From a virus (lineage: Duplodnaviria > Heunggongvirae > Uroviricota > Caudoviricetes), in IMG/VR virus record IMGVR_UViG_2875703104_000004: 64,000 nucleotides of DNA; one strand, written 5' to 3'. The position numbers and the translations under genes were made by a program. The notes beneath the pieces are model-generated. The model did no database searches. It was not told where the DNA came from and saw only the letters and a list, made by a program, of their open reading frames with translations. Shown one piece after another: positions 1 through 58,968 of the stretch. The first letter of the stretch is position 1, and every line of letters begins with the position of its first letter.

Positions 1-1244
1 ACGGAAACCACGCAGTTATTCCGTACGCGTTTTAAAGCCGTGAGTCCGAAACGGGTGGACACGCCTGGACACGGTATGGGGAACCGTTTTCTGCGGGCCG
101 GTGTGGAGGTCGATCGATATGGCCGTGCCGTCGCGTACCATATCTGTGAGGATGATTTTCCGTTCTCTGGTAGTGGACGATGGGAACGGATCCCGCGTGA
201 ACTTCCCACCGGGCGTCCGGCCATGCTGCATATTTTCGAGCCGGTGGAGGACGGGCAGACCCGTGGGGCTAATCAGTTTTACAGCGTCATGGAACGGCTG
301 AAGATGCTCGATTCCCTGCAGGCAACACAGCTTCAGTCGGCCATAGTGAAGGCGATGTATGCAGCGACGATTGAAAGTGAACTTGATACCGAAAAGGCCT
401 TTGAATATATCGCCGGCGCGCCACAGGAGCAGAAGGATAATCCGCTTATTAATATTCTGGAGAAGTTCTCCAGCTGGTATGACACGAATAACGTGACACT
501 GGGCGGTGTCAAAATTCCGCACCTTTTCCCTGGTGATGATCTGAAACTACAGACTGCGCAGGATTCAGACAATGGATTTTCTGCGCTTGAACAGGCGCTG
601 CTGCGGTATATCGCCGCCGGTCTTGGCGTTTCCTACGAACAGTTGTCCCGTGATTACTCGAAGGTCAGTTACTCAAGTGCCCGCGCCTCCGCCAATGAGT
701 CGTGGAACAGGCGCTGCTGCGGTATATCGCCGCCGGTCTTGGCGTTTCCTACGAACAGTTGTCCCGTGATTACTCGAAGGTCAGTTACTCAAGTGCCCGC
801 GCCTCCGCCAATGAGTCGTGGCGCTATTTTATGGGGCGGCGAAAATTTATTGCGGCCCGGCTGGCCACGCAGATGTTTTCCTGCTGGCTGGAAGAGGCAC
901 TTCTTCGGGGGATTATTCGTCCGCCACGGGCACGTTTTGATTTTTATCAGGCGCGATCAGCCTGGTCACGGGCAGAGTGGATTGGTGCCGGAAGAATGGC
1001 CATTGACGGGCTCAAGGAAGTCCAGGAATCAGTGATGCGCATTGAGGCCGGACTGAGCACGTATGAGAAAGAGCTGGCGCTGATGGGCGAGGATTATCAG
1101 GACATTTTCCGCCAGCAGGTCAGGGAATCTGCTGAGCGGCAAAAAGCCGGACTCTCACGTCCGGTGTGGATAGAGCAGGCGTATCAGCAGCAGATAGCGG
1201 AGAGTCGTAGGCCGGAAGAGGAGACAACACCACGTGAGACGTAA
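1..1244 (+). pseudogene. B: portal protein (lambda gpB-like), 5' end outside window, frame broken by a 116-bp tandem duplication
   Basis: Translation matches lambda-type portal (..RFLRAGVEVDRYGRAVAYHICEDDF.., C-terminal ..RMAIDGLKEVQESVMRIEAGLSTYEKELA..); N- and C-terminal parts lie in different frames (ORFs 40..1035 and 702..1244). Confidence 0.8.
589..820. repeat. perfect tandem direct duplication, 2 x 116 bp, inside portal gene
   Basis: Unit starting gaacaggcgctgctgcggtatatcgcc occurs at 589-704 and again at 705-820; 116 is not a multiple of 3. Confidence 0.9.
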
Positions 1245-7565: not shown

Positions 7566-10054
7566 ACCGGTAGGCGATCTGGTCGTTGATTTAAGTCTGG
7601 ATGCGGCCAGATTTGACGAGCAGATGGCCAGAGTCAGGCGTCATTTTTCCGGTACGGAAAGTGATGCGAAAAAAACAGCGGCAGTCGTTGAACAGTCGCT
7701 GAGCCGACAGGCGCTGGCTGCACAGAAAGCGGGGATTTCCGTCGGGCAGTATAAAGCCGCCATGCGTATGCTGCCTGCACAGTTCACCGACGTGGCCACG
7801 CAGCTTGCAGGCGGGCAAAGCCCGTGGCTGATCCTGCTGCAACAGGGTGGTCAGGTTAAGGACTCCTTCGGCGGGATGATCCCCATGTTCCGGGGGCTTG
7901 CCGGTGCGATCACCCTGCCGATGGTCGGGGCCACCTCGCTGGCGGTGGCGACCGGTGCGCTGGCGTATGCCTGGTATCAGGGTAACTCAACCCTGTCCGA
8001 TTTCAACAAAACGCTGGTCCTTTCCGGCAATCAGTCGGGTCTGACGGCAGATCGTATGCTGGTCCTGTCCAGAGCCGGGCAGGCGGCAGGGCTGACGTTT
8101 AACCAGACCAGCGAGTCACTCAGCGCACTGGTTAAGGCGGGAGTAAGCGGTGAGGCTCAGATTGCATCCATCAGCCAGAGTGTGGCGCGTTTCTCCTCTG
8201 CATCCGGCGTGGAGGTGGACAAGGTCGCTGAAGCCTTCGGGAAGCTGACCACTGACCCGACGTCGGGGCTGACGGCGATGGCGCGCCAGTTCCATAACGT
8301 AACGGCGGAGCAGATTGCGTATGTTGCTCAGTTGCAGCGTTCCGGCGATGAATCCGGGGCATTGCAGGCGGCGAACGAGGCCGCAACGAAAGGGTTTGAT
8401 GACCAGACCCGACGCCTGAAAGAGAACATGGGCACGCTGGAAACCTGGGCAGACAGGACAGCACGGGCATTCAAATCCATGTGGGATGCGGTGCTGGATA
8501 TTGGTCGTCCTGATACCGCTCAGGAGATGCTGATTAAGGCAGAGGCTGCGTTTAAGAAAGCGGACGACATCTGGAATCTGCGCAAGGATGATTATTTTGT
8601 TAACGATGAAGCGCGGGCGCGTTACTGGGATGATCGTGAAAAGGCCCGTCTTGCGCTTGAAGCCGCCCGAAAGAAGGCTGAACAGCAGAGTCAACAGGAC
8701 AAAAATGCGCAGCAGCAGAGCGATACCGAAGCATCACGGCTGAAATATACCGAAGAGGCGCAGAAGGCTTACGAACGGCTGCAGACACCGCTGGAGAAAT
8801 ATACCGCCCGTCAGGAAGAACTGAACAAGGCACTGAAAGACGGGAAAATCCTGCAGGCAGATTACAACACGCTGATGGCGGCGGCGAAAAAGGATTATGA
8901 AGCGACGCTGAAAAAGCCGAAACAGTCCGGCGTGAAGGTGTCTGCGGGCGATCGTCAGGAAGACAGTGCTCATGCTGCCCTGCTGACGCTTCAGGCTGAA
9001 CTCCGGACGCTGGAGAAGCATGCCGGAGCAAATGAGAAAATCAGCCAGCAGCGCCGGGATTTGTGGAAAATCCCTGCTGGCGCATAAAGATGAGACGCTG
9101 GAGTACAAACGCCAGCTGGCTGCACTTGGCGACAAGGTTACGTATCAGGAGCGCCTGAACGCGCTGGCGCAGCAGGCGGATAAATTCGCACAGCAGCAAC
9201 GGGCAAAACGGGCCGCTATTGATGCGAAAAGCCGGGGGCTGACTGACCGGCAGGCAGAACGGGAAGCCACGGAACAGCGCCTGAAGGAACAGTATGGCGA
9301 TAATCCTCTGGCGCTGAATAACGTCATGTCAGAGCAGAAAAAGACCTGGGCGGCTGAAGACCTGCTTCGCGGGAACTGGATGGCAGGCCTGAAGTCCGGC
9401 TGGAGTGAGTGGGAAGAGAGTGCCACGGACAGTATGTCGCAGGTTAAAAGTGCTGCCACGCAGACCTTTGATGGTATTGCGCAGAATATGGCGGCGATGC
9501 TGACCGGCAGTGAACAGAACTGGCGCAGCTTCACCCGTTCCGTGCTGTCCATGATGACAGAAATTCTGCTTAAGCAGGCAATGGTGGGGATTGTCGGGAG
9601 TATCGGCAGCGCTATTGGCGGGGCTGTTGGTGGCGGCGCATCCGCGTCAGGCGGTACAGCCATTCAGGCCGCTGCGGCGAAACTCCATTTTGCAACCGGA
9701 GGATTTACGGGAACCGGCGGCAAATATGAGCCAGCGGGGATTGTTCACCGTGGTGAATTTGTCTTCACGAAGGAGGCAACCAGCCGGATTGGCGTGGGAA
9801 ATCTCTACCGGCTGATGCGCGGCTATGCCACCGGCGGTTATGTCGGTGGCACCGGAAGTCCGGCGCAAATGCGGCGTTCAGAGGGTATCAGGTTTGAGCA
9901 GAACAACAACGTGGTGATTCAGAACGACGGTACGAATGGTCTGCCAGGTCCACAGATGATGAAGGCGGTGTATGACATGGCCCGCAAGGGTGCCCGTGAT
10001 GAAATCCAGGCACAGATGCGCGATGGTGGTCTGTTCTCCGGAGGTGGACGATGA
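7558..10054 (+). pseudogene. H: tail tape measure protein H, frame broken at about 9068
   Basis: N-terminal ORF 7558..9087 and C-terminal ORF 9020..10054 are both H-like; this copy lacks 64 bp that the second copy has at about 31017-31080. Confidence 0.8.
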
Positions 10055-15974: not shown

Positions 15975-16799
15975 ATGGCAGTACAGATTTCAGGCGTGCT
16001 GAAAGACGGTGCAGGAAAACCGATACAGAACTGCACCATTCAGCTCAAAGCAAAACGTAACAGCACCACGGTTGTGGTGAACACGGTGGCCTCAGAAAAT
16101 CCGGATGAAGCCGGACGTTACAGCATGGATGTCGAGTATGGCCAGTACAGCGTTATCCTGCTGGTTGAAGGTTTTCCGCCTTCACATGCCGGGGCCATCA
16201 CCGTGTATGAGGATTCTAAGCCGGGGACATTGAATGATTTTCTGGGCGCTGCAACAGAAGATGATGTTCGTCCGGAGGCACTGTATCGTTTTGAAAAGAT
16301 GGTGGAAGAGGTGGCACGCAACGCTGAAGCCGCCTCTCAGAGCGCAGCGGCAGCAAAGAAATCAGAAACAGCAGCGGCATCGTCCAGGAATGCGGCGAAA
16401 ACATCAGAGACGAATGCAGGTAACAGCGCGAAAGCGGCAGCTTCTTCAAAAACAGCCGCACAAAACGCAGCAACAGCGGCAGAACGTTCAGAGACAAATG
16501 CCCGTGCGTCAGAAGAAGCCTCCGCAGACAGTGAAGAGGCTTCCCGCCGTAATGCAGAGTCAGCCGCTGAAAATGCCGGAGTCGCCACCACAAAAGCGCG
16601 GGAGGCCGCAGCAGACGCAACAAAGGCCGGGCAGAAAAAGGATGAGGCTCTGTCGGCAGCGATAATTAAAAACGATGCACACCGGGTTTTTACCGCGTTA
16701 ATGATTCGCGGGTTTATCCCGGTGCGATGGTGGAAGAAACAGGAAGCTGTATTACAGAAAGTGCTACTACTGTATCCCGATGCGATGTATGTAATGTGA
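15975..16799 (+). pseudogene. stf: side tail fibre protein, N-terminal fragment only
   Basis: Starts MAVQISGVLKDGAGKPIQNCTIQLKAKRNSTTVVVNTVASENPDEAGRYSMDVEYGQYSV with Ala/Ser-rich repeats; ORF ends after ~275 codons in unrelated sequence. Confidence 0.7.
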
Positions 16800-17208: not shown

Positions 17209-17300
17209 TGCTTCCAGGTAGAGAGGGGCTGGANGCAGGAGAAAAATGAAAGAGCCAGCGGTTATATTTTTGTCATGGCTGACGAGGAATGATGGAAGAA

Positions 17301-17323
17301 GGCGTTGTATGCCACACAACGCC
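17301..17323. terminator. hairpin between convergent genes (possible bidirectional terminator)
   Basis: ggcgttgt-atgccac-acaacgcc, a perfect 8-bp stem flanked by T-rich sequence on both strands. Confidence 0.45.
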
Positions 17324-17330
17324 TCACTGT

Positions 17331-17823
17331 TCATTTCTTCTTTTTCTCTGGTGGAACCCGATGAATAAGAGTTGCACTGGTTTCCGATGAGATGGCGATA
17401 TACTCGGGCAAAGTATGCTGGCAGTTTTCCAACTGGTCAAAAATACCTGCTCTCGTCTGTTGCAATGCCTGCAGCATGCGGCGGCAATGCGCCTTGCTTT
17501 TACTAACCATCTTTCCTTCCTCTATCAGTCGCTGCGTGAACTCATCATGNAATACCAGGTAAATGCGGATGTTATCGGTTTTGGCTACGCAGCATAGTAC
17601 AAAACGGACAGGTGCATCCCGGGACGGGGGAGGCGTCACATGTCCCTGTGATGGTTGTTCCGGGTAATGNACTGTGTGGGGCATAAAAATGTCCGATAAT
17701 TTTACTTTCTACCGCAGTTAGTTGATTCGTTGGTCCTGGTAGCACATTGGGCGAGGATTTAAATGCCAGGCAACTGAAGGATGATGTNGCAAGGGAGATA
17801 GCGAGAATATTTCTGATTTTCAT
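17331..17823 (-). CDS. candidate secreted protein gene(s); frame uncertain because of ambiguous bases
   Basis: Minus-strand ORF from ATG 17823 begins MKIRNILAISL.TSSFSCLA (signal-peptide-like) with several Cys; an overlapping ORF 17331..17684 continues in another frame; n bases at 17550, 17670 and 17788. Confidence 0.3.
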
Positions 17824-17838
17824 TTGATGATGCCTCTG

Positions 17839-18138
17839 TGTGAAATGACGGTAAACGACGCACTTGTGCCGGCACATAATAGCAAGCACCATAATAGATC
17901 AGATTCGATTCTTGCTGTAAGTGATAATTATTCTCGTTTTCGGGTCCTTTCCGTCGATCCAACAGGTTACGGGGCGGCGACCTCGCGGTGTGAAATGACG
18001 GTAAACGACGCACTTGTGCCGGCACATAATAGCAAGCACCATAATAGATCAGATTCGATTCTTGCTGTAAGTGATAATTATTCTCGTTTTCGGGTCCTTT
18101 CCGTCGATCCAACAGGTTACGGGGCGGCGACCTCGCGG
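17839..18138. repeat. tandem duplication (2 x 150 bp) of the phage right-end / cosQ-cosN segment
   Basis: tgtgaaatgacggtaaacgacgcac...ggttacggggcggcgacctcgcgg occurs at 17839-17988 and 17989-18138; each copy ends in a cosN-like GGGCGGCGACCT. Confidence 0.85.
18122..18133 (+). other. cosN-like cohesive-end sequence GGGCGGCGACCT (second copy at 17972-17983)
   Basis: Followed by CGCGGGTTTTCGCTATTTATGAAAATTTT and the Nu1 gene, the arrangement remembered for the lambda left end. Confidence 0.75.
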
Positions 18139-20941: not shown

Positions 20942-22646
20942 AACGAACGCCTGTCCTGATTGATGTGAACGGCGTTCCGCTTCGGGAGAGCCTCAGCTAC
21001 AACGGGGGCGGCGCAGGATTTGGCGGGCAAATGGCGGAGTGGTTGCCACCGGCGCAGAGTGCCGATGCGGCCCTGCTGCCCGCGTTGCGTCTGGGGAATG
21101 CCCGGGCAGATGATCTGGTGCGCAATAACGGGATAGCGGCCAATGCGGTGGCCCTGCATAAGGATCACATTGTCGGGCATATGTTTCTTATCAGCTACCG
21201 CCCGAACTGGCGCTGGCTGGGGATGCGGGAGACCGCGACAAAAAGTTTTGTCGATGAGGTGGAGGCGGCCTGGTCAGAATACGCAGAAGGGATGTTTGGT
21301 GAGATCGACGTGGAAGGGAAACGCACGTTTACGGAATTTATCCGTGAAGGTGTGGGCGTTCATGCGTTTAACGGCGAAATCTTTGTGCAGCCGGTCTGGG
21401 ATACGGAGAGCACGCAACTGTTTCGTACGCGTTTTAAAGCCGTGAGTCCGAAACGGGTGGACACGCCAGGACACGGTATCGGGAACCGTTTTCTGCGGGC
21501 CGGTGTGGAGGTTGATCGATATGGCCGTGCCGTTGCGTACCATATCTGTGAGGATGATTTTCCTCGCTCCGGGAGTGGACGATGGGAACGGATCCCGCGT
21601 GAACTTCCCACCGGGCGTCCGGCCATGCTGCATATTTTCGAGCCGGTGGAGGACGGGCAGACCCGTGGGGCCAACCAGTTTTACAGCGTCATGGAACGGC
21701 TGAAGATGCTCGATTCCCTGCAGGCAACACAGCTTCAGTCGGCCATTGTCAAGGCGATGTATGCAGCGACAATTGAAAGTGAACTGGATACCGAAAAGGC
21801 CTTTGAATATATCGCCGGTGCGCCGCAGGGGCAGAAGGATAATCCGCTTATTAATATTCTGGAGAAGTTCTCCAGCTGGTATGACACGAATAACGTGACG
21901 CTGGGCGGTGTCAAAATTCCGCACCTTTTCCCTGGTGATGATCTGAAACTACAGACAGCGCAGGATTCAGACAATGGATTTTCTGCGCTTGAACAGGCGC
22001 TGCTGCGGTATATCGCCGCCGGTCTTGGCGTTTCCTACGAACAGTTGTCCCGTGATTACTCGAAGGTCAGTTACTCAAGTGCCCGCGCCTCCGCCAATGA
22101 GTCGTGGAACAGGCGCTGCTGCGGTATATCGCCGCCGGTCTTGGCGTTTCCTACGAACAGTTGTCCCGTGATTACTCGAAGGTCAGTTACTCAAGTGCCC
22201 GCGCCTCCGCCAATGAGTCGTGGCGCTATTTTATGGGGCGGCGAAAATTTATTGCGTCCCGGCTGGCCACGCAGATGTTTTCCTGCTGGCTGGAAGAGGC
22301 ACTTCTGCGGGGGATTATCCGTCCGCCACGGGCACGTTTTGATTTTTATCAGGCGCGTTCAGCCTGGTCACGGGCTGAGTGGATTGGTGCCGGAAGAATG
22401 GCCATTGACGGGCTCAAGGAGGTTCAGGAATCGGTGATGCGTATTGATTCCGGACTGAGCACGTATGAGAAAGAGCTGGCGCTGATGGGCGAGGATTATC
22501 AGGACATTTTCCGCCAGCAGGTCAGGGAATCTGCAGAGCGGGAAAAAGCCGGACTCTCACGTCCGGTGTGGATAGCGCAGGCGTATCAGCAGCAGATAGC
22601 GGAGAGTCGCAGGCCGGAAGAGGAGACAACACCACGTGAGACGTAA
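20938..22646 (+). pseudogene. B: portal protein (lambda gpB-like), frame broken by the same 116-bp tandem duplication
   Basis: ORF 20938..22437 plus C-terminal ORF 22104..22646 in another frame; paralogue of 1..1244. Confidence 0.8.
21991..22222. repeat. tandem direct duplication, 2 x 116 bp, same sequence as 589-820
   Basis: gaacaggcgctgctgcgg...gagtcgtg at 21991-22106 and 22107-22222. Confidence 0.9.
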
Positions 22647-24689
22647 TCTTTCACACATTATTGCAGCAGCATTCAATGAACCGCTGCTTCTGGAGCCCGC
22701 CTATGCGCGGGTTTTCTTTTGCGCGCTCGGGCGCGAGATGGGGGCAGCAAGTCTTTCGGTACCGCAACAGCAGGTACAGCTTGATGCTCCCGGGATGCTG
22801 GCTGAAACGGACGAGTACATGGCCGGAGGTAAACGACCGGCCCGTGTTTACCGGGTGGTGAACGGTATTGCGGTACTGCCGGTGACCGGCACGCTGGTGC
22901 ACCGGCTGGGGGGGATGCGGCCATTTTCCGGAATGACTGGCTATGACGGCATTGTCGCCTGTCTTCAGCAGGCAATGGCAGATAGCCAGGTGCGGGGCAT
23001 ACTGCTGGACATTGACAGTCCGGGCGGGCAGGCCGCCGGCGCGTTTGACTGCGTTGACATGATTTACCGCCTCCGGCAGCAGAAGCCGGTCTGGGCACTG
23101 TGCAATGACACGGCCTGTTCTGCAGCCATGCTGCTGGCGTCGGCCTGCTCCCGACGGCTGGTTACCCAGACATCCCGTATCGGCTCCATTGGCGTGATGA
23201 TGAGCCATGTCAGCTATGCCGGTCATCTGGCGCAGGCCGGTGTGGATATCACGCTGATTTACTCAGGGGCGCACAAGGTGGATGGCAATCAGNGGTGCAC
23301 CGGCTGGGTGGTATGCGGCCATTTTCCGGAATGACAGGCTATGACGGCATTGTCGCCTGTCTTCAGCAGGCAATGGCGGATAGCCAGGTGCGGGGCGTAC
23401 TGCTGGACATTGACAGTCCGGGCGGGCAGGCCGCCGGCGCGTTTGACTGCGCTGACATGATTTACCGCCTCCGTCAGCAGAAGCCGGTCTGGGCACTGTG
23501 CAATGACACGGCCTGTTCTGCAGCCATGCTGCTGGCGTCGGCCTGCTCCCGACGGCTGGTTACCCAGACATCCCGTATCGGCTCCATTGGCGTGATGATG
23601 AGCCATGTCAGCTATGCCGGTCATCTGGCGCAGGCCGGTGTGGATATCACGCTGATTTANNCNGGGGCGCACAAGGTGGATGGCAATCAGTTTGAAGCGT
23701 TGCCGGCAGAGGTTCGCCAGGACATGCAGCAGCGGATTGATGCGGCGCGCCGGATGTTTGCCGAAAAAGTGGCGATGTATACCGGTCTGTCTGTTGATGC
23801 CGTCACGGGAACAGAGGCTGCCGTTTTTGAAGGTCAGTCCGGCATTGAGGCCGGGCTGGCGGATGAATTAATCAATGCGTCGGATGCCATCAGTGTGATG
23901 GCCACGGCGCTGAACAGTAATGTCAGAGGAGGCACTATGCCGCAATTAACTGCAACGGAAGCCGCCGCTGCCGTTTTTGAAGGTCAGTCCGGCATTGAGG
24001 CCGGGCTGGCGGATGAATTAATCAATGCGTCGGATGCCATCAGTGTGATGGCCACGGCGCTGAACAGTAATGTCAGAGGAGGCACTATGCCGCAATTAAC
24101 TGCAACGGAAGCCGCCGTGCAGGAGAACCAGCGAGTGATGGGGATCCTGACATGCCAGGAAGCGAAAGGACGTGAACAGCTTGCCACGATGCTGGCAGGG
24201 CAACAGGGCATGAGCGTTGAACAGGCCCGGGCGATTCTGGCCGCGGCGGCACCGCAGCAGCCGGTGGCATCCGCACAGAGTGAAGCCGATCGCATTATGG
24301 CGTGTGAAGAAGCGAACGGTCGTGAACAACTGGCAGCAACGCTGGCGGCGATGCCGGAGAGGACGGTGGAAAAAGCCCGCCCGATCCTGGCTGCTTCACC
24401 GCAGGCGAATGCCGGGCCCTCACTTCGTGATCAGATCATGGCACTGGATGAGGCAAAAGGGGCTGAGGCGCAGGCTGAACAGCTGGCTGCCTGCCCGGGA
24501 ATGACTGTGGAGAGCGCCCGGGCTGTGCTGGCTGCGGGATCAGGTAAGGCAGAACCGGTCTCTGCATCCACAACCGCCCTGTTTGAACATTTCATGGCGA
24601 ACCATTCACCGGCTGCGGTCCAGGGGGGCGTGTCACAGGCGTCAGAAGACGGTGATGCGGACGTGAAAATGCTCATGGCCATGCCATGA
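22636..24689 (+). CDS. C: prohead protease / scaffold (gpC-like), second copy, with internal duplications
   Basis: Same motifs as 1234..2739; frame interrupted at n 23293 where 22896-23292 is repeated at 23294-23690; additional in-frame 150-bp tandem duplication at 23821-24120. Confidence 0.7.
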
Positions 24690-24725
24690 AGTCAGTGCTG
24701 AACATCAATACGAGGTTTTAACAAT

Positions 24726-25073: not shown

Positions 25074-25130
25074 CACGTTATCAGGCCACCGCGTTGGCCT
25101 GACTGATTTCTTAATGAAAGGAACTGATTT

Positions 25131-26159: not shown

Positions 26160-26165
26160 TCCGTG

Positions 26166-26196
26166 AGCGGGGGCGAAATGCCCCCGTGTCTTTTTT
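26166..26196 (+). terminator. terminator-like hairpin downstream of E (second copy)
   Basis: Same gcggggg-cgaaatg-cccccg hairpin plus TTTTTT as at 4216-4246. Confidence 0.55.
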
Positions 26197-26210
26197 CACA
26201 GGAGGCTGAG

Positions 26211-29525: not shown

Positions 29526-32217
29526 TCTTGTTATTGACCTGAGTCTGGATGCTGTCCGTTTCGATGAGCAGATGAGCCGGGTAAGGCGTCATTTTTCAGG
29601 TCTGGATACCGACGCCAGAAAAACCGCCAGTGCTGTTGAACAGGGCCTGAGCCGCCAGGCGCTGGCTGCACAAAAAGCCGGGATTTCCGTCGGGCAGTAT
29701 AAAGCGGCCATGCGAACCCTGCCCGCACAGTTTACGGATATCGCCACGCAGCTTGCCGGTGGTCAGAATCCCTGGCTGATCCTGCTGCAACAGGGCGGTC
29801 AGGTGAAGGACTCCTTCGGCGGGATGATCCCCATGTTCAGGGGGCTTGCCGGTGCGATCACCCTGCCGATGGTCGGGGTCACCTCGCTGGCGGTGGCGAC
29901 AGGTGCGCTGGTGTACGCCTGGTACCAGGGAGATTCCACGCTTTCAGCGTTTAATAAAACCCTGGTTCTTTCCGGTAATCAGTCCGGACTGACTGCCGAT
30001 CGCATGCTGACGCTCTCCAGAGCCGGACAGGCCGCAGGGCTGACGTTTAACCAGGCGAGTGAGTCACTGGCAGCCCTGGTGAATGCCGGTGTGCGTGGTG
30101 GTGAACAGTTTGATGCCATCAACCAGAGTGTCGCGCGTTTTGCTTCTGCATCCGGTGTGGAGGTGGACAAGGTTGCAGAGGCTTTCGGAAAACTGACCAC
30201 TGACCCGACGTCGGGGCTGATTGCGATGGCGAAGCAGTTCCATAACGTGACGGCGGAGCAGATTGCGTATGTTGCTCAGTTGCAGCGTTCCGGCGATGAA
30301 GCCGGGGCATTGCAGGCGGCGAACGAGGCCGCAACGAAAGGGTTTGATGACCAGACCCGACGCTTGAAAGAGAACATGGGCACGCTGGAAACCTGGGCAG
30401 ACAGGACAGCACGGGCATTCAAATCCATGTGGGATGCGGTGCTGGATATTGGTCGTCCTGATACCGCGCAGGAGATGCTGATTAAGGCAGAGGCCGCGTT
30501 TAAGAAAGCGGACGATATCTGGAATCTGCGCAAGGATGATTATTTTGTTAACGATGAAGCGCGGGCGCGTTACTGGGATGATCGTGAAAAGGCCCGTCTT
30601 GCGCTTGAAGCCGCCCGAAAGAAGGCTGAGCAGCAGAGTCAACAGGACAAAAATGCGCAGCAGCAGAGCGATACCGAAGCGTCACGGCTGAAATATACCG
30701 AAGAGGCGCAGAAGGCTTACGAACGGCTGCAGACGCCGCTGGAGAAATATACCGCCCGTCAGGAAGAACTGAACAAGGCACTGAAAGACGGGAAAATCCT
30801 GCAGGCGGATTACAACACGCTGATGGCGGCGGCGAAAAAGGATTATGAAGCGACGCTGAAAAAGCCGAAACAGTCCGGCGTGAAGGTGTCTGCGGGCGAT
30901 CGTCAGGAAGACAGTGCTCATGCTGCCCTGCTGACGCTTCAGGCNGAACTCCGGACGCTGGAGAAGCATGCCGGAGCAAATGAGAAAATCAGCCAGCAGC
31001 GCCGGGATTTGTGGAAGGCGGAGAGTCAGTTCGCGGTACTGGAGGAGGCGGCGCAACGTCGCCAGCTGTCTGCACAGGAGAAATCCCTGCTGGCGCATAA
31101 AGATGAGACGCTGGAGTACAAACGCCAGCTGGCTGCACTTGGCGACAAGGTTACGTATCAGGAGCGCCTGAACGCGCTGGCGCAGCAGGCGGATAAATTC
31201 GCACAGCAGCAACGGGCAANNNNNNNNNNNNNNNNNNNNNTGGCGCATAAAGATGAGACGCTGGAGTACAAACGCCAGCTGGCTGCACTTGGCGACAAGG
31301 TTACGTATCAGGAGCGCCTGAACGCGCTGGCGCAGCAGGCGGATAAATTCGCACAGCAGCAACGGGCAAAACGGGCCGCCATTGATGCGAAAAGCCGGGG
31401 GCTGACTGACCGGCAGGCAGAACGGGAAGCCACGGAACAGCGCCTGAAGGAACAGTATGGCGATAATCCGCTGGCGCTGAATAACGTCATGTCAGAGCAG
31501 AAAAAGACCTGGGCGGCTGAAGACCTGCTTCGCGGGAACTGGATGGCAGGCCTCAGGTCCGGCTGGAGTGAGTGGGAAGAGAGTGCCACGGACAGTATGT
31601 CGCAGGTAAAAAGTGCAGCCACGCAGACCTTTGACGGTATTGCACAGAATATGGCAGCGATGCTGACCGGCAGCGAACAGAACTGGCGTGGTTTCACCCG
31701 TTCTGTGCTGTCCATGCTGACAGAGATTTTTCTGAAGCAGGCGATGGTGGGGATTGTCGGGAGTATCGGCAGCGCTATTGGCGGGGCTGTTGGTGGCGGC
31801 GCATCCGCGTCAGGCGGTACAGCCATTCAGGCCGCTGCGGCGAAATTCCATTTTGCAACCGGAGGATTTACGGGAACCGGCGGCAAATATGAGCCAGCGG
31901 GGATTGTTCACCGTGGTGAATTTGTCTTCACGAAGGAGGCAACCAGCCGGATTGGTGTCGGCAACCTGTATCGTCTGATGCGCGGGTATGCGGAAGGTGG
32001 TTATGTCGGCGGTGCCGGAAGTCCGGCGCAGATGCGGCGGGCCGAAGGTATTAATTTTAATCAGAACAATCACGTGGTGATTCAGAACGACGGTATCAAC
32101 GGACAGGCGGGGTCGCAGCTGATGAAGGCGGTGTATGACATGGCCCGCAAGGGGGCACAGGATGAACTCCGGCTGCAGTTGCGTGATGGCGGTCTGTTAT
32201 CAGGGAGCGGTCGATGA
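29506..32217 (+). CDS. H: tail tape measure protein H (contains an N-run and a redundant block)
   Basis: 903-aa ORF paralogous to 7558..10054; N-run at 31220-31240 flanked by duplicated ~132-bp blocks. Confidence 0.8.
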   Translation: MSQPVGDLVIDLSLDAVRFDEQMSRVRRHFSGLDTDARKTASAVEQGLSRQALAAQKAGISVGQYKAAMRTLPAQFTDIATQLAGGQNPWLILLQQGGQVKDSFGGMIPMFRGLAGAITLPMVGVTSLAVATGALVYAWYQGDSTLSAFNKTLVLSGNQSGLTADRMLTLSRAGQAAGLTFNQASESLAALVNAGVRGGEQFDAINQSVARFASASGVEVDKVAEAFGKLTTDPTSGLIAMAKQFHNVTAEQIAYVAQLQRSGDEAGALQAANEAATKGFDDQTRRLKENMGTLETWADRTARAFKSMWDAVLDIGRPDTAQEMLIKAEAAFKKADDIWNLRKDDYFVNDEARARYWDDREKARLALEAARKKAEQQSQQDKNAQQQSDTEASRLKYTEEAQKAYERLQTPLEKYTARQEELNKALKDGKILQADYNTLMAAAKKDYEATLKKPKQSGVKVSAGDRQEDSAHAALLTLQXELRTLEKHAGANEKISQQRRDLWKAESQFAVLEEAAQRRQLSAQEKSLLAHKDETLEYKRQLAALGDKVTYQERLNALAQQADKFAQQQRAXXXXXXXXAHKDETLEYKRQLAALGDKVTYQERLNALAQQADKFAQQQRAKRAAIDAKSRGLTDRQAEREATEQRLKEQYGDNPLALNNVMSEQKKTWAAEDLLRGNWMAGLRSGWSEWEESATDSMSQVKSAATQTFDGIAQNMAAMLTGSEQNWRGFTRSVLSMLTEIFLKQAMVGIVGSIGSAIGGAVGGGASASGGTAIQAAAAKFHFATGGFTGTGGKYEPAGIVHRGEFVFTKEATSRIGVGNLYRLMRGYAEGGYVGGAGSPAQMRRAEGINFNQNNHVVIQNDGINGQAGSQLMKAVYDMARKGAQDELRLQLRDGGLLSGSGR

Positions 32218-32543: not shown

Positions 32544-33178
32544 TGCAGGATATTCGCGAAGAAAGTCTGAACGAGTCGGTTAAGTCAGAGCAGTCACCGC
32601 GGGTGGTACTCTGGGAAATCGACCTGACGGTACAGGGTGGTGAGCGGTATTTTTTCTGTAATGAGCTGAATGAAAAAGGGGAGCCGGTCACCTGGCAGGG
32701 GCGTAAGTATGAGGCATACCCGATTGACGGCAGCGGCTTTGAGATGAACGGCCGGGGCAGCAGTGCCAGACCGTCGCTGACGGTGTCGGTCCGCCGCCGG
32801 GTGTATGCCCGTTTTCTGGATGCGGTGAATTTCGTTGCGGGCAATCCGGAGGCGGACCCGGAGCAGGAGCTGAGTGACCGCTGGGTGGTGGAGCAGATGT
32901 CGCAGCTGACAGCCATGACGGCCTCGTTTGTGCTGGCTACACCGACCGAGACGGACGGGGCGCTGTTTCCCGGTCGCATCATGCTGGCGAACACCTGTAT
33001 GTGGGATTACCGGGGAGATGAATGCGGGTATAACGGTCCTGCGGTGGCGGATGAGTTCGATAAACCCACCACGGATATCCGTAAGGACAGATGCAGCAAG
33101 TGCATGCGCGGGTGTGAACTGCGCAGGAATGTCGGCAATTTTGGCGGTTTCCTTTCCATTAATAAACTTTCGCAGTAA
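32543..33178 (+). CDS. L: minor tail protein L (21 codons shorter than the other copies)
   Basis: 211-aa ORF; lacks the segment NLFGLVTGMAEDLQSLVGATV present in the other L copies. Confidence 0.75.
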   Translation: MQDIREESLNESVKSEQSPRVVLWEIDLTVQGGERYFFCNELNEKGEPVTWQGRKYEAYPIDGSGFEMNGRGSSARPSLTVSVRRRVYARFLDAVNFVAGNPEADPEQELSDRWVVEQMSQLTAMTASFVLATPTETDGALFPGRIMLANTCMWDYRGDECGYNGPAVADEFDKPTTDIRKDRCSKCMRGCELRRNVGNFGGFLSINKLSQ

Positions 33179-33374
33179 ATCCCGGTTTATGAGGCAGTCT
33201 GTGTTATGTATCTTCTTTCGGGTGGGTACAGGGCAGTGCGCGATTTCTGGCGCAGGCAGATTGATAAAAGGGCCGCTGAGAGAATCAGCGCCAGTCAGTC
33301 AGCCGGAAGCAAACCCGAAGATCCGCTCATTCCGTAGTCACTTTCTTGACAACACCTTTCAACGAGAAAATCCC

Positions 33375-33620
33375 ATGTCAGAAATCACATCCCTGGTCAC
33401 TGCTGAGGCAGTGAAGGAAGTCCTGCGCTCTGAAGAAGTCCNGAGNGCACTGAAACAGAAACTCCGCCAGAACCTTGAGNCGCGTCTTGATGCAGAAGTG
33501 GATGCCATTCTGGATGAGCTGCTGGGCGTACCAGCGGTTCCGGAGCCGGAAGGTATCGCGGGTGACGGGAGTGCTTCAGATGGCGGTGAACCCACACCTG
33601 ACAGCGACATGATGATGTAA
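33375..33620 (+). CDS. hypothetical small acidic protein
   Basis: 82-codon ORF starting [17 protein letters not shown] with a strongly acidic C-terminus; contains ambiguous bases; no match recognised. Confidence 0.3.
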
Positions 33621-33696: not shown

Positions 33697-34062
33697 ATGT
33701 ACCAGATGGAAAAAATCACAACAGGTGTGTCATACACCACGTCAGCGGTGGGAACGGGCTACTGGTTCCTGCAGTTGCTGGACAGGGTTTCCCCGTCTCA
33801 GTGGGCGGCAATAGGCGTGCTGGGGAGTCTGCTGTTTGNNNNNNNNNNNNNNNNNNNNNAAAAAATCACAACAGGTGTGTCATACACCACGTCAGCGGTG
33901 GGAACGGGCTACTGGTTCCTGCAGTTGCTGGACAGGGTTTCCCCGTCTCAGTGGGCGGCAATAGGCGTGCTGGGGAGTCTGCTGTTTGGGCTGCTGACAT
34001 ATCTGACTAACCTGTATTTCAAAATCAGAGAGGACCGGCGTAAGGCGGCGCGGGGAGAGTAA
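33697..34062 (+). CDS. S: class II holin / pinholin (phage 21 S-like); ORF inflated by a redundant block around an N-run
   Basis: [26 protein letters not shown]...[40 protein letters not shown]: two TM segments, charged C-terminus, dual-start M..M; 33711-33838 repeated after the N-run 33839-33859. Confidence 0.75.
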
Positions 34063-50553: not shown

Positions 50554-51408
50554 TGCAGGATATTCACGAAGAAAGTCTGAACGAGTCGGTTAAATCAGAG
50601 CAGTCACCGCGGGTGGTACTCTGGGAAATCGACCTGACGGTACAGGGCGGTGAGCGGTATTTTTTCTGTAATGAGCTGAATGAAAAAGGGGAGCCGGTCA
50701 CCTGGCAGGGGCGTAAGTATGAGGCATACCCGATTGACGGCAGCGGCTTTGAGATGAACGGCCGGGGCAGCAGTGCCAGACCGTCGCTGACGGTGTCCAA
50801 TCNGTGGTGAGCGGTATTTTTTCTGTAATGAGCTGAATGAAAAAGGGGAGCCGGTCACCTGGCAGGGGCGTAAGTATGAGGCATACCCGATTGACGGCAG
50901 CGGCTTTGAGATGAACGGCCGGGGCAGCAGTGCCAGACCGTCGCTGACGGTGTCCAATCTGTTCGGTCTGGTCACCGGGATGGCGGAAGACCTGCAGAGT
51001 CTGGTGGGGGCCACGGTGGTCCGCCGCCGGGTGTATGCCCGTTTTCTGGATGCGGTGAATTTCGTTGCGGGCAATCCGGAGGCGGACCCGGAGCAGGAGC
51101 TGAGTGACCGCTGGGTGGTGGAGCAGATGTCGCAGCTGACAGCCATGACGGCCTCGTTTGTGCTGGCTACACCGACCGAGACGGACGGGGCGCTGTTTCC
51201 CGGTCGCATCATGCTGGCGAACACCTGTATGTGGGATTACCGGGGAGATGAATGCGGGTATAACGGTCCTGCGGTGGCGGATGAGTTCGATAAACCCACC
51301 ACGGATATCCGTAAGGACAGATGCAGCAAGTGCATGCGCGGGTGTGAACTGCGCAGGAATGTCGGCAATTTTGGCGGTTTCCTTTCCATTAATAAACTTT
51401 CGCAGTAA
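50553..51408 (+). CDS. L: minor tail protein L (contains a redundant block around n 50803)
   Basis: L N-terminus to about codon 84, n at 50803, then L restarts from about codon 33 and runs to the LSINKLSQ stop at 51408. Confidence 0.7.
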
Positions 51409-52576
51409 ATCCCGGTTTATGACACAGACTGAATCAGCGATTCTGGCGCATGCCCGGCGGTGTGTGCCTGCGGAGTCGTGCGGCTTAGTGGTGAGAACGC
51501 CGGAGGGGGAGCGGTATATCCCTTGTGTGAATATCTNCCAATCTGTTCGGTCTGGTCACCGGGATGGCGGAAGACCTGCAGAGTCTGGTGGGGGCCACGG
51601 TGGTCCGCCGCCGGGTGTATGCCCGTTTTCTGGATGCGGTGAATTTCGTTGCGGGCAATCCGGAGGCGGACCCGGAGCAGGAGCTGAGTGACCGCTGGGT
51701 GGTGGAGCAGATGTCGCAGCTGACAGCCATGACGGCCTCGTTTGTGCTGGCCACACCGACCGAGACGGACGGGGCGCTGTTTCCCGGTCGTATCATGCTG
51801 GCGAACACCTGTATGTGGACCTACCGCTCTGATGAGTGTGGTTACACGGGCGGGGCAGTGGCGGATGAGTTCGATAAACCCACCACGGATATCCGTAAGG
51901 ACAGATGCAGCAAGTGCATGCGCGGGTGTGAACTGCGCAGGAATGTCGGCAATTTTGGCGGTTTCCTTTCCATTAATAAACTTTCGCAGTAAATCCCGGT
52001 TTATGACACAGACTGAATCAGCGATTCTGGCGCATGCCCGGCGGTGTGTGCCTGCGGAGTCGTGCGGCTTNCTTTGAGATGAACGGCCGGGGCAGCAGTG
52101 CCAGACCGTCGCTGACGGTGTCCAATCTGTTCGGTCTGGTCACCGGGATGGCGGAAGACCTGCAGAGTCTGGTGGGGGCCACGGTGGTCCGCCGCCGGGT
52201 GTATGCCCGTTTTCTGGATGCGGTGAATTTCGTTGCGGGCAATCCGGAGGCGGACCCGGAGCAGGAGCTGAGTGACCGCTGGGTGGTGGAGCAGATGTCG
52301 CAGCTGACAGCCATGACGGCCTCGTTTGTGCTGGCTACACCGACCGAGACGGACGGGGCGCTGTTTCCCGGTCGCATCATGCTGGCGAACACCTGTATGT
52401 GGGATTACCGGGGAGATGAATGCGGGTATAACGGTCCTGCGGTGGCGGATGAGTTCGATAAACCCACCACGGATATCCGTAAGGACAGATGCAGCAAGTG
52501 CATGCGCGGGTGTGAACTGCGCAGGAATGTCGGCAATTTTGGCGGTTTCCTTTCCATTAATAAACTTTCGCAGTAA
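51409..52576. repeat. two redundant 584-bp blocks, each K 5' end + n + L 3' part
   Basis: L stop codons at 51408, 51992 and 52576 (period 584 bp); n at 51539 and 52071 marks the jump from K sequence back into L. Confidence 0.8.
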
Positions 52577-52586
52577 ATCCCGGTTT

Positions 52587-53330
52587 ATGACACAGACTGA
52601 ATCAGCGATTCTGGCGCATGCCCGGCGGTGTGTGCCTGCGGAGTCGTGCGGCTTAGTGGTGAGAACGCCGGAGGGGGAGCGGTATATCCCTTGTGTGAAT
52701 ATCTCTGCAGAGCCGGAGGCGTATTTTCGTATTGCACCGGAAGACTGGCTGCGGGCAGAGATGCAGGGGGAGATTGTGGCACTGGTCCACAGTCATCCCG
52801 GTGGGCTGCCCTGGCTGAGCGAGGCTGACCGGCGGCTGCAGATAAAAAGCGCACTGCCCTGGTGGCTGGTCTGCCGGGGTGACATTCACAAATTCCGCTG
52901 CGTGCCGCACCTGACGGGACGGCGCTTTGAGCACGGGGTGACGGACTGTTACACCCTGTTCCGGGATGCATACCATCTGGCGGGGACTGAAATGCCGGAT
53001 TTTCATCGCGAGGATGACTGGTGGCGCAACGGTCAGAACCTTTACCTGGACAATATGGCGGTCACCGGCTTTTACCGGGTGCCCCTGTCCTCTGCACAGG
53101 CGGGCGATATTCTGCTGTGCTGCTTTGGTGCTTCGGTACCGAACCATGCCGCCATTTACTGCGGCAACGGTGAGCTGCTTCACCATCTGCCTGAACAACT
53201 GAGTAAACGGGAGAGGTATTCCGAAAAATGGCAACGACGAACGCATTCTGTCTGGCGTCACCGCCACTGGCACGCATCTGCCTTCACGGGGATTTGCAAC
53301 GATTTGGCCGCCGCCTCAGCCTGTATGTGA
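52587..53330 (+). CDS. K: tail assembly protein K
   Basis: Starts MTQTESAILAHARRC..; HSHPGG motif; paralogue of 11084..11827. Confidence 0.85.
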   Translation: MTQTESAILAHARRCVPAESCGLVVRTPEGERYIPCVNISAEPEAYFRIAPEDWLRAEMQGEIVALVHSHPGGLPWLSEADRRLQIKSALPWWLVCRGDIHKFRCVPHLTGRRFEHGVTDCYTLFRDAYHLAGTEMPDFHREDDWWRNGQNLYLDNMAVTGFYRVPLSSAQAGDILLCCFGASVPNHAAIYCGNGELLHHLPEQLSKRERYSEKWQRRTHSVWRHRHWHASAFTGICNDLAAASACM

Positions 53331-58011: not shown

Positions 58012-58483
58012 ATGCGTAAAGTTTGTGCAGCCATTTTGTCCGCAGCCATCTGTCTGTCCGTATCCGGTGCGCCTGCATGGGCGTCTGAACATCAGTCCAC
58101 ACTGAGCACAGGGTATCTTCATGCCCGTACGAACGCTCCCGGCAGCGATAATCTGAACGGGATTAACGTGAAATACCGTTATGAGTTTACGGACACGCTG
58201 GGGCTGGTGACGTCATTCAGTTATGCCAATGCCAAAGATGAGCAAAAAACGCATTACAGCGATACCCGCTGGCATGAAGATTCCGTGCGTAACCGCTGGT
58301 TCAGCGTCACGATGTGCTGACCGGAAGTGATGACGGTCGCCACAGCAATACGTCTCTGGCGTGGGGGGCTGGCGTGCAGTTTAACCCGACCGAATCCGTG
58401 GCCATTGATATTGCTTATGAAGGCTCCGGCAGTGGTGACTGGCGCACTGACGGTTTCATCGTGGGGGTCGGTTATAAATTCTG
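58012..58483 (+). pseudogene. lom: Ail/Lom-family outer membrane protein gene with internal deletion and frameshift
   Basis: MRKVCAAILSAAICLSVSGAPAWASEHQSTLSTGYLHARTN..; after ..RNRWFSV the frame jumps to the C-terminal ..LTGSDDGRHSNTSLAWGAGVQFNPTESVAIDIAYEGSGSGDWRTDGFIVGVGYKF. Confidence 0.75.
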
Positions 58484-58510
58484 ATTAGCCAGGTAACACA
58501 GTGTTATGAC

Positions 58511-58538
58511 AGCCCGCCGGTTCAGGCGGGCTTTTTTG
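58511..58538 (+). terminator. rho-independent terminator after lom
   Basis: agcccgcc-ggttca-ggcgggct plus TTTTTT. Confidence 0.6.
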
Positions 58539-58548
58539 TGGAGTGGAT

Positions 58549-58968
58549 ATGGCAGCAGTAAAAATCTCAGGTGTGCTGAAAGATGGTGCGGGAAAACCAA
58601 TACAGAACTGCACTATTCAGCTGAAGGCAAAGCGTAACAGCACCACGGTACTGGTGAACACGGTGGCCTCTGAAAATCCGGATGAAGCCGGGCGTTACAG
58701 CATGGATGTTGAGCATGGCCAGTACAGCGTCACCCTGCTGGTTGAAGGTTTTCCGCCTTCACATGCCGGGACCATTACCGTCTATGAAGGTTCCAGACCA
58801 GGTACGCTGAATGATTTTCTTGGCGCCATGACGGAAGATGATGTCATGCCGGAGGCACTGCGCCGTTTTGAGCTGATGGTGAATGAAGTGGCACGTCATG
58901 CCGGAGCATCATCACAGAGCGCAGCGGCAGCAAAGAAATCCGAAACTGCTGCGGCATCATCGAAGAAC
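58549..58968 (+). pseudogene. stf: side tail fibre N-terminal fragment, joined in frame to a lom fragment
   Basis: MAAVKISGVLKDGAGKPIQNCTIQLKAKRNSTT.. runs to ..AAASSKNA, then lom sequence GINVKYRYEF. Confidence 0.6.

What the first reader, a model, noticed from the sequence alone, without database searches (positions are those of the whole stretch)
22896..23690. Ambiguous bases mark unmerged overlaps: sequence on each side of n or N-runs is redundant
At n 23293 the 397 bp before it are repeated after it. The same pattern occurs at the N-run 31220-31240 (~132-bp blocks), the N-run 33839-33859 (~128-bp blocks), n 50803 (~155-bp overlap), and n 51539 and 52071 (583-bp overlaps). These look like contigs or reads concatenated without collapsing their overlaps, so repeats bounded by n should not be read as biology, and the ORFs crossing them (C, H, holin, L) are artificially lengthened or split.
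Basis: seen in the sequence. Interest (0 to 1): 0.4.

Follow-up and report, generated by a model that had tools for sequence, protein, structure and literature searches.

The report
Unmerged assembly overlaps, not real repeats
The repeats next to the ambiguous bases are assembly artefacts: overlapping pieces from near-identical E. coli prophages were pasted end to end without merging, so the repeats and the broken or lengthened phage genes across them are not biology.

Summary
N 23293 is flanked by a 397-nt direct repeat. The other listed joins also check out, with overlaps of 129, 129, 156, 583 and 583 nt; one N is at 51537, not 51539. Complete E. coli genomes 99-100% identical to the flanks carry one copy of every block. 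Deleting one copy restores portal (530/530 aa), protease C (497/501), tape measure H (853/853), holin (71/71) and L (228/232).

- Five more unmerged overlaps have no N (116 nt twice, 150 nt three times).
- 23 of the 27 single N positions are not joins; 13 demonstrably sit where paralogous prophages differ.
- The two copies are often different alleles: 23294-23968 is 100% the allele of another prophage in the window.
- Piece ends lie about 150 nt from the nearest paralog-distinguishing SNP, as expected for assembly-graph pieces with fixed 150-nt overlaps.

The window is a chain of pieces from three lambdoid prophages plus an IS-rich locus of an ST1193-like E. coli, with blunt chimeric joins. 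Nothing here is a biological feature.

The parts
22896..23292 (.). Left copy of the 397-nt overlap. It is the end of a prophage-B-type piece (22107-23292) inside the S49 protease/scaffold gene C.
   Evidence: 99.75% identical to MCJCHV-1 prophage L002. It differs from the right copy at 7 sites, which are the A/B allelic differences.
23293..23293 (.). Separator N between two pieces. It has no counterpart base in any reference.
23294..23968 (.). A 675-nt piece carrying the prophage-A allele, inserted into the prophage-B path. Its first 397 nt are the right copy of the overlap and its last 150 nt overlap the next piece.
   Evidence: 100% identical to window 1494-2168 except for N at 23660, 23661 and 23663. 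It is 98.4% identical to L002 and 99.6% to L001.
23817..24116 (.). 150-nt unmerged overlap without N (23817-23966 / 23967-24116). It adds 50 codons in frame to gene C.
   Evidence: The first A/B SNP (24118) lies 151 nt after the piece start by script count, or 150 allowing the 1-nt ambiguity in where the join is placed.
21991..22222 (.). 116-nt unmerged overlap without N in the prophage-B portal gene. It frameshifts the portal.
   Evidence: Collapsing it gives a portal 530/530 identical to the reference. The junction is absent from 5,426 complete E. coli genomes.
589..820 (.). The same 116-nt unmerged overlap in the prophage-A portal gene.
   Evidence: The flanking A/B SNPs at 555 and 855 lie 150 nt from the join at 705.
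17838..18137 (.). 150-nt unmerged overlap without N, upstream of the terminase small subunit gene. The left piece (16661-17988) is a collapsed A/B consensus.
   Evidence: The first A/B SNP is at 18139, 150 nt after the right piece starts. The junction is absent from complete genomes.
31091..31369 (.). 129-nt overlap plus 21 N (a 150-nt period) inside tape-measure gene H of prophage B. It lengthens H from 853 to 903 aa.
   Evidence: The N-run corresponds to +-10 nt around the first A/B SNP (31380 in the right copy).
33710..33988 (.). 129-nt overlap plus 21 N (a 150-nt period) inside the class II holin gene. It lengthens the holin reading frame by 50 codons.
   Evidence: The N-run corresponds to +-10 nt around the first L002/L003 SNP (33999).
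50647..50959 (.). 156-nt overlap across N 50803, at the start of minor tail gene L of prophage C.
50804..51536 (.). A 733-nt piece carrying a second allele of gene L. It is identical to the prophage-B copy at 32637-33192 plus the 63 nt missing there. It is an alternative branch laid in series.
51538..52070 (.). A 533-nt piece carrying the prophage-C allele of L. It is bounded by N 51537 and N 52071 and overlaps both neighbours by 583 nt.
   Evidence: 100% identical to L003 20998-21530. Its SNP cluster lies 214 and 213 nt from its two ends.
52072..52654 (.). Third copy of the 583-nt block, and the start of the piece that continues through K, I and J.
58158..59119 (.). A 150-nt block (58158-58307) repeated at 58970-59119. 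Between the two copies lies a 662-nt alternative-allele piece (58308-58969).
   Evidence: The first variable site (N 59120) lies 150 nt after the start of the piece at 58970.
32788..33192 (.). A 405-nt allele-specific piece of gene L. It is preceded by a 63-nt gap in the sequence (32787|32788) and followed by a blunt jump to the lysis region (33192|33193).
   Evidence: The first and last allele differences lie exactly 150 and 149 nt from its two ends.
9067..9068 (.). Join with 64 nt missing, inside tape-measure gene H of prophage A. It frameshifts H.
   Evidence: H is split into ORFs 7558-9087 and 9020-10054.
16661..16662 (.). Blunt chimeric join from the side-tail-fibre gene of prophage A to the region upstream of the terminase genes of prophage B.
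   Evidence: L001 42252 jumps to L001 21016 / L002 19662
59993..59994 (.). Blunt chimeric join from a prophage tail-fibre region to an IS-rich chromosomal locus that lies 1.8 Mb away in the closest complete genome.
17234..17788 (.). Four single N (17234, 17550, 17670, 17788). These are ambiguity calls, not joins.
   Evidence: They are exactly the four positions at which L001 and L002 differ within this 1328-nt piece.
33442..33480 (.). Three single N (33442, 33446, 33480). These are ambiguity calls at the only sites in this piece where the two reference prophages differ.

Best explanation
The window is not a faithful stretch of DNA. It is a chain of assembly pieces from a short-read-type assembly of an E. 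coli closely related to ST1193 strain MCJCHV-1. That strain background carries several lambdoid prophages with near-identical late genes.

The assembler could keep the paralogous prophages apart only near bases that distinguish them. Each allele-specific piece therefore runs about 150 nt into the shared sequence on each side. This is the behaviour of a de Bruijn or overlap graph whose neighbouring nodes overlap by a fixed 150 nt.

The pieces were then ordered and written one after another without merging their overlaps, with nothing, one N or an N-run between them. The outcome depends on the length of shared sequence between two distinguishing sites.
- Shorter than 300 nt: the pieces overlap and a false tandem duplication appears (116 nt).
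- A shared piece meeting a specific piece: the overlap is exactly 150 nt.
- Longer than 300 nt with the shared piece omitted: a small false deletion appears (63 nt at 32787|32788). The 64-nt deletion at 9067|9068 looks like the same kind of gap, but its left piece end does not fit the 150-nt rule.

Both alleles of some bubbles were written in series. These are the A-type piece at 23294-23968, the two L-gene alleles at 50804-52070, and the piece at 58308-58969. That produces the 397-, 156- and 583-nt repeats across single N.

Collapsed pieces carry N at paralog-variable sites.

Shown: the structure, the absence from relatives, ORF restoration, and the link between piece ends and SNP positions. 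Inferred: the kind of assembler and the ordering step.
For: 1. Single copy in relatives. Complete genomes 99.1-99.8% identical overall to the two query stretches lack all the duplications, and the length differences equal the sums of the repeat periods. Phage 21-like phages also lack the 116-, 398- and 150-nt blocks (3998 nt maps to 3334 nt).

2. ORF restoration. After collapse, portal is 530/530 identical to the reference, C 497/501, H 853/853, holin 71/71 and L 228/232. Before collapse these genes are split or carry 50-codon inserts.

3. The copies are alleles of different prophages. 23294-23968 is identical to window 1494-2168 (prophage A) apart from 3 N, while the left copy is prophage-B type. 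50804-51536 is identical to the prophage-B copy at 32637-33192, and 51538-52070 is 100% the prophage-C type.

4. Fixed geometry.
- Five independent overlaps have a period of exactly 150 nt (17838, 23817, 31091 with N, 33710 with N, 58158/58970).
- Piece starts lie 149-151 nt before the first paralog SNP: 705 to 855, 22107 to 22257, 17989 to 18139, 23967 to 24118, 32788 to 32938, 58970 to 59120, 9068 to 9217.
- Piece ends lie 148-150 nt after the last SNP: 555 to 705, 32638 to 32787, 33043 to 33192, 58821 to 58969.
- Both 21-N runs map to +-10 nt around the first distinguishing SNP. This was predicted for the second run and then confirmed.

5. The identical 116-nt duplication occurs at the homologous place in two different prophages. 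The geometry explains this, because both share the same flanking SNPs.

6. Junction sequences are unknown elsewhere.
- The 30-mer across the 116-nt join has 0 hits in IMG/VR and GTDB genomes, against at least 120 IMG/VR contigs for the native 30-mer.
- The 30-mer across the 150-nt join has 0 hits in IMG/VR, metagenomes and genomes.
- Neither 60-mer junction matches contiguously in 5,426 complete E. coli genomes. At least one half matches in 1,852 and 1,655 genomes, and both halves in 1,029 and 1,112 of them; in the listed best hits the pair spans 117 or 152 nt of the record, the spacing expected for one native copy.

7. Single N sit at paralog-variable sites. All 4 L001/L002 differences in piece 16661-17988 are N, and all 3 L002/L003 differences in 33193-33838 are N.

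8. Chimeric blunt joins link loci that lie 0.2-1.8 Mb apart in the closest complete genome.
Against: No reads or assembly graph are available, so the absence of junction-spanning reads is not shown directly.

The pieces joined by a single N do not obey the 150-nt rule. Their margins to the nearest SNP are 213-216 and 263-264 nt, and two of them start 1 and 15 nt from a SNP. One piece end (9067) lies 70 or 208 nt from the nearest SNPs. At least two different steps or parameters must therefore have produced the pieces.

The observed 116-nt overlap is one base shorter than the 117 nt expected from symmetric 150-nt margins.

The source record and the software could not be identified.
Confidence: 0.95

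Rival explanations
1. The blocks are genuine tandem duplications physically present in these prophages, and the N are simple base-calling failures that happen to lie at the junctions.
For: Tandem duplications do occur in phage genomes. Four of the periods (150 nt at 17838 and 23817, and 129+21 N at 31091 and 33710) are multiples of 3 and would be tolerated in frame.
Against: The junctions are absent from 5,426 complete E. coli genomes and from IMG/VR, although the native sequence is common. There are five independent duplications of exactly 150 nt. Breakpoints lie at a fixed distance from paralog SNPs. The second copy of the 397-nt block is 100% the allele of a different prophage. The 116-, 398-, 157- and 584-nt periods frameshift essential portal, protease and tail genes in all three prophages at once. 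The N lie exactly at the copy boundary.
Confidence: 0.02
2. It is an artefact, but of a different kind. The pieces of 533-733 nt joined by single N are separate gap-closing sequences (PCR or Sanger reads, or local re-assemblies) pasted into gaps of a draft, or tiles of a reference-guided consensus, rather than nodes of one assembly graph.
For: The three N-joined pieces are 675, 733 and 533 nt long, which is the size of a Sanger read. Their ends ignore the 150-nt rule, and their start and end coordinates differ from one another by 50, 100 and 150 nt. The pieces follow the descending coordinate order and strand of an MCJCHV-1-like reference, at about 2.85 Mb, 2.65 Mb and 0.83 Mb, all on the minus strand. 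That suggests reference-guided ordering.
Against: The N-free joins show a very regular 150-nt geometry tied to paralog SNPs, which gap-closing reads would not produce. The N-joined pieces are exact copies of alleles present elsewhere in the same window, as expected for alternative graph branches. This rival bears only on the mechanism of four joins and leaves the verdict of artefact unchanged.
Confidence: 0.25
3. The A-type stretch inside prophage B (23294-23968) and the second L allele reflect real gene conversion or recombination between resident prophages. The assembly failed around real mosaic boundaries.
For: Lambdoid prophages in one genome do exchange segments. The L allele at 50804-51536 matches L002 over its first 487 nt and L003 over its last 263 nt, which is a mosaic pattern.
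Against: Recombination would replace sequence, not duplicate it. Here both alleles are present in series with overlapping ends. The A-type piece is identical to the A copy in the same window, so a misplaced piece is the simpler reading.
Confidence: 0.05

Closest known systems
False duplications at contig joins and gaps in draft assemblies
   Same: Two nearly identical copies abut at a gap or join. The copies differ by haplotype- or paralog-type variants. Genes across the join are falsely duplicated, lengthened or frameshifted. Better assemblies of close relatives show one copy.
   Different: By its abstract, that paper quantifies false duplications in vertebrate assemblies. Here the two versions are paralogous prophages within one bacterial genome. 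Many joins carry no gap character at all.
Fixed (k-1) overlaps between neighbouring nodes of a de Bruijn assembly graph (my own knowledge of how such graphs are written)
   Same: There is an exact, constant overlap length (150 nt) at independent joins. Allele-specific pieces extend a constant distance past the outermost distinguishing base. Shared pieces stop immediately before the first distinguishing base.
   Different: An overlap of 150 nt is larger than the maximum k of common short-read assemblers, so the software is unidentified. Four joins with single N, one piece end and the 21-N masks do not follow the simple rule.
Collapsed-repeat consensus with ambiguity codes
   Same: Single N occur exactly at the positions where the paralogous prophages differ, inside pieces otherwise identical to both.
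   Different: 10 of the 23 ambiguity N (56524 and nine between 59120 and 59201) have no visible second allele in the window or in the two reference prophages. They may reflect a paralog outside the window or low base quality.
Genuine in-frame tandem repeat arrays in phage structural genes, such as the 162-nt array at 43147-43517 in this window
   Same: Head-to-tail direct repeats inside a structural gene.
   Different: The genuine array has diverged units (86% matches), a period that is a multiple of 3, no N, and is present in the reference prophage. The artefactual blocks are 97-100% identical, mostly break the reading frame and are absent from references.

Membership tests
Unmerged contig overlap (false tandem duplication from assembly) | The two copies abut directly or across a gap character, with the repeat boundary exactly at the join. 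| tested here: met
   all six N-associated joins, plus four abutting N-free joins. A fifth N-free overlap (58158-58307 / 58970-59119) is separated by an inserted 662-nt alternative-allele piece.
Unmerged contig overlap (false tandem duplication from assembly) | Closely related, independently finished genomes carry a single copy, and the length difference equals the repeat period. | tested here: met
   814 = 150+116+398+150; 1325 = 157+584+584.
Unmerged contig overlap (false tandem duplication from assembly) | Removing one copy restores intact, full-length reading frames. | tested here: met
   portal 530/530, C 497/501, H 853/853, holin 71/71, L 228/232.
Unmerged contig overlap (false tandem duplication from assembly) | The junction sequence is not seen in any independent assembly. 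| tested here: met
   searches gave 0 hits. The control native 30-mer hit at least 120 contigs. Only the two N-free junctions could be tested.
Unmerged contig overlap (false tandem duplication from assembly) | No reads span the junction, and read depth over the copies is half that of the flanks. | not testable with these tools
   No reads or source record are available. The source was not found.
Assembly-graph node overlaps of fixed length | Constant overlap length at independent joins. | tested here: met
   Five joins have a period of exactly 150 nt.
Assembly-graph node overlaps of fixed length | Piece ends lie at a constant distance from the nearest base that distinguishes repeat copies. | tested here: inconclusive
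   Met at 11 piece ends, at 148-151 nt. Not met at the four single-N joins (213-264 nt, or 1-15 nt) or at 9067.
Genuine biological tandem duplication | Both copies are physically contiguous in the DNA molecule (junction-spanning reads or PCR). | not testable with these tools
   No reads are available.
Genuine biological tandem duplication | The copies derive from the same locus, so differences between them are new mutations and not alleles of another locus. | tested here: not met
   The right copy of the 397-nt block is 100% the prophage-A allele. All 7 differences are A/B allelic sites.
Genuine biological tandem duplication | Breakpoints are independent of sequencing and assembly parameters. 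| tested here: not met
   Breakpoints are tied to a 150-nt distance from paralog SNPs, and the identical 116-nt event occurs in two prophages.

The most novel reading that the evidence does not exclude
One of the mixed-allele stretches records a real gene-conversion event between co-resident lambdoid prophages of an ST1193-like E. coli, and the assembler broke at that boundary. Candidates are the A-type tract in the C gene of prophage B and the mosaic L allele that matches one reference prophage in its first 487 nt and the other in its last 263 nt. The duplications themselves would still be artefacts.
Probability: 0.05. Interest if true: 0.15.

Novelty: not a real feature. Interest (0 to 1): 0.04.

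Why it matters
The only consequence is for data quality. Any repeat, frameshift, 'split' or 'extended' gene, or apparent adjacency of three prophage late regions in this window should not be interpreted biologically. This covers portal, C, H, holin and L, and also H of prophage A and L of prophage B, which carry small false deletions.

Two practical rules follow for later readers of this record.
- N is not a reliable flag. Five overlaps have no N, and most single N mark paralog-variable sites.
- The two copies can be alleles of different prophages, so de-duplication must follow one allele and not simply delete either copy.

Tried and rejected
1. Finding the source record. Junction 30-mers were searched in IMG/VR, GTDB genomes and JGI metagenomes. 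The artefact-specific 499-aa portal ORF was looked up by exact sequence. Nothing was found, so the assembler and reads remain unknown.

2. A simple read-length model (margins of 149 nt on both sides) and a symmetric k=151 model. They predict overlaps of 115 and 117 nt for the portal duplication; 116 nt is observed. I did not resolve the one-base discrepancy. A trivial 1-nt G|G merge at the join would explain it, but that is untested.

3. Applying the 150-nt rule to the single-N joins and to the 9067 end. It fails there. These pieces probably come from another step.

4. Regular chunking of the sequence by a storage or windowing pipeline as the cause of the 150-nt overlaps. Rejected, because the join positions are not periodic and are tied to SNP positions.

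5. Reading the 162-nt array at 43147-43517 as another artefact. Rejected as such, because its units are diverged, it is in frame and it is present in the reference. The window has one unit fewer than L003, which may be real variation or repeat collapse.

6. My first alignment of that array used wrong reference coordinates and was discarded.
Full report
**Observation.** The window holds 69 N: two runs of 21 and 27 single positions.

Self-comparison confirms direct repeats whose boundary is exactly at an N.
- 22896-23292 | N 23293 | 23294-23690: 397 nt, 97.5% identical.
- 31091-31219 | 21 N | 31241-31369: 129 nt, 100%.
- 33710-33838 | 21 N | 33860-33988: 129 nt, 100%.
- 50647-50802 | N 50803 | 50804-50959: 156 nt.
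- Two 583-nt overlaps across N 51537 and N 52071.

- 589-704/705-820 and 21991-22106/22107-22222: 116 nt each, the same event in two paralogous regions.
- 17838-17987/17988-18137 and 23817-23966/23967-24116: 150 nt each.
- 58158-58307 repeated at 58970-59119: 150 nt.

**What the window is.** Tiling on public records divides the window into four parts.
- 1-16662 is 99.6-99.96% identical to the late region (portal to side tail fibre) of phage PhiR57_1. I call this prophage A.
- 16661-33192 is 99.7-100% identical to a lambdoid prophage of E. coli MCJCHV-1 at about 2.85 Mb. I call this prophage B. MCJCHV-1 appears in papers on ST1193 and on an O75:H5:K1 neonatal meningitis strain (PMC6256591, PMC11488385, titles and abstracts only).
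- 33193 to about 59993 matches a second prophage of the same genome at about 2.65 Mb. I call this prophage C.
- 59994-64000 is 100% identical to an IS-rich locus at 0.83 Mb.

The joins at 16661|16662, 33192|33193 and 59993|59994 are blunt. They connect a tail gene directly to the region upstream of a terminase or lysis cassette, or to an unrelated locus. The window is therefore a chain of repeat-derived pieces and not one stretch of chromosome. Parts B, C and the IS locus follow the descending order and minus strand of the MCJCHV-1 chromosome, which hints at reference-guided ordering. That last point is inference.

**Are the duplications real?**

First, relatives have one copy. Window 17000-25000 (8001 nt) aligns to 7187 nt of 99.8%-identical complete genomes, and the 814-nt difference equals 150+116+398+150. 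Window 49800-54200 (4401 nt) aligns to 3076 nt, and the 1325-nt difference equals 157+584+584. Phage 21-like phages likewise lack the 116-, 398- and 150-nt blocks. Prophage A inside the window is an internal control: it lacks the 397-, 150- and 129-nt blocks of B.

Second, removing one copy of each overlap restores full-length proteins relative to the MCJCHV-1 annotation: portal 530/530 identical residues, protease/scaffold C 497/501, tape measure H 853/853, holin 71/71 and L 228/232. In the raw sequence portal, C and L are split, and H and holin carry 50-codon inserts.

Third, the junctions are unknown elsewhere.
- The 30-mer across the 116-nt join has no hit in IMG/VR or GTDB genomes, while the native 30-mer hits at least 120 IMG/VR contigs.
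- The 30-mer across the 150-nt join at 17988 has no hit in IMG/VR, JGI metagenomes or GTDB genomes.
- Neither 60-mer junction has a contiguous match in 5,426 complete E. coli genomes.
- At least one half matches in 1,852 and 1,655 of those genomes, and both halves in 1,029 and 1,112. In the listed best hits the two halves together span 117 or 152 nt of the record, the spacing expected for a single native copy.

**Mechanism.** The two copies are often alleles of different prophages. Piece 23294-23968 (675 nt) is identical to window 1494-2168 of prophage A apart from three N. The left copy is B-type, and the seven real mismatches between the copies are the A/B allelic sites.

In the L-gene region four pieces follow one another.
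- A C-type piece ends at 50802.
- A second-allele piece follows at 50804-51536. It is identical to prophage B at 32637-33192 plus 63 nt missing there.
- A C-type piece follows at 51538-52070, 100% identical to the reference.
- The second allele resumes at 52072.

At 58308-58969 an alternative allele is inserted between two pieces that overlap by 150 nt. So both branches of allelic 'bubbles' were written in series.

Piece ends have a fixed geometry relative to the bases that distinguish the paralogs.
- Starts lie 149-151 nt before the first distinguishing base: 705 to 855, 22107 to 22257, 17989 to 18139, 23967 to 24118, 32788 to 32938, 58970 to 59120, 9068 to 9217.
- Ends lie 148-150 nt after the last one: 555 to 705, 32638 to 32787, 33043 to 33192, 58821 to 58969.
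- Shared pieces stop immediately before the first distinguishing base (17988 and 58307).

This geometry explains several features.
- The identical 116-nt duplication occurs in both A and B, because they share 183 nt between SNPs, and 2x150 minus 183 gives about 116-117.
- Five overlaps are exactly 150 nt.
- 63 nt are missing at 32787|32788, because the shared stretch there is longer than 300 nt.

The two 21-N runs correspond to +-10 nt around the first distinguishing SNP. I saw this at 31380, predicted it for the second run, and then confirmed it at 33999.

This is the behaviour of assembly-graph nodes with a fixed 150-nt overlap. It is not the behaviour of biological duplication.

**The single N.** Four are separators at joins (23293, 50803, 51537, 52071). 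The other 23 are not joins.
- In piece 16661-17988, the four N are exactly the four positions at which the A-like and B-like references differ.
- In piece 33193-33838, the three N are exactly the three L002/L003 differences.
- 23660, 23661, 23663 and 30945 are also reference-variable sites.
- 59252 and 59291 are sites where the alternative piece differs.
- Ten N (56524, and nine between 59120 and 59201) have no visible second allele in the data I hold.

These are ambiguity calls in collapsed consensus.

**What does not fit.** The pieces joined by single N do not obey the 150-nt rule. Their margins are 213-216 and 263-264 nt, or 1-15 nt. The piece end at 9067 does not fit either. The 116-nt overlap is one base short of the symmetric expectation. 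A second step, such as gap filling or another parameter, probably produced those pieces. I could not identify the software or the source record.

**Comparison with what is known.** By my own knowledge, false duplications at assembly joins are a well-described class of error; the one paper I located (Ko et al. 2022, PMC9516828) was seen by title and abstract only. Here the diverged versions are paralogous prophages rather than the sources of error in vertebrate assemblies that paper covers. The 162-nt array at 43147-43517 is a useful contrast. Its units are diverged (86% matches), it is in frame, it has no N and it is present in the reference prophage.

**Verdict.** This is not a biological feature, so interest is very low. 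The practical value is a warning. Repeats, frameshifts, lengthened genes, small deletions (64 nt at 9067|9068, 63 nt at 32787|32788) and the apparent adjacency of three prophage late regions in this window are assembly artefacts. N is neither necessary nor sufficient to flag them.

Noticed in passing
window 43147-43517: An in-frame 162-nt tandem array (2.3 units, 86% matches) lies in a head-region gene of prophage C. The window has one unit fewer than the MCJCHV-1 prophage (L003), where the corresponding gene is annotated as a frameshifted portal protein. This could be real copy-number variation or repeat collapse in the assembly.
   Followed up: partly
window 16661|16662, 33192|33193, 59993|59994: Blunt joins connect unrelated places: tail-fibre gene to the pre-terminase region, the L/K boundary to the lysis region, and a tail-fibre region to an IS-rich chromosomal locus. 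Prophage B, prophage C and the IS locus follow the descending order and minus strand of the MCJCHV-1 chromosome (about 2.85, 2.65 and 0.83 Mb), with the unique chromosome between them missing.
   Followed up: partly
window 9067|9068 and 32787|32788: Small false-looking deletions occur at piece joins. 64 nt are missing from tape-measure gene H of prophage A, which frameshifts it and splits H into ORFs 7558-9087 and 9020-10054. 63 nt are missing from gene L of prophage B, leaving it 21 codons short.
   Followed up: yes
window 59120-59291 and 56524: A cluster of eleven single N lies within 172 nt in the lom/tail-fibre region, plus one isolated N at 56524. Only 59252 and 59291 could be tied to a visible second allele. 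The others may reflect a paralog outside the window or low base quality.
   Followed up: partly
window 59994-64000: This stretch is 100% identical to a locus with IS3 and IS30 transposases and an L-lactate permease gene, present in MCJCHV-1 and in seven other listed complete genomes that share it at 100% identity. This supports an ST1193-like E. coli as the source.
   Followed up: no
window 1-16662: Prophage A is 99.6-99.96% identical to the late region of Escherichia phage PhiR57_1 (PV340572.1, host ECOR13). Over window 1-705 it is only 96.3% identical to the MCJCHV-1 prophage, so the source strain probably carries a third lambdoid prophage not seen in MCJCHV-1.
   Followed up: no
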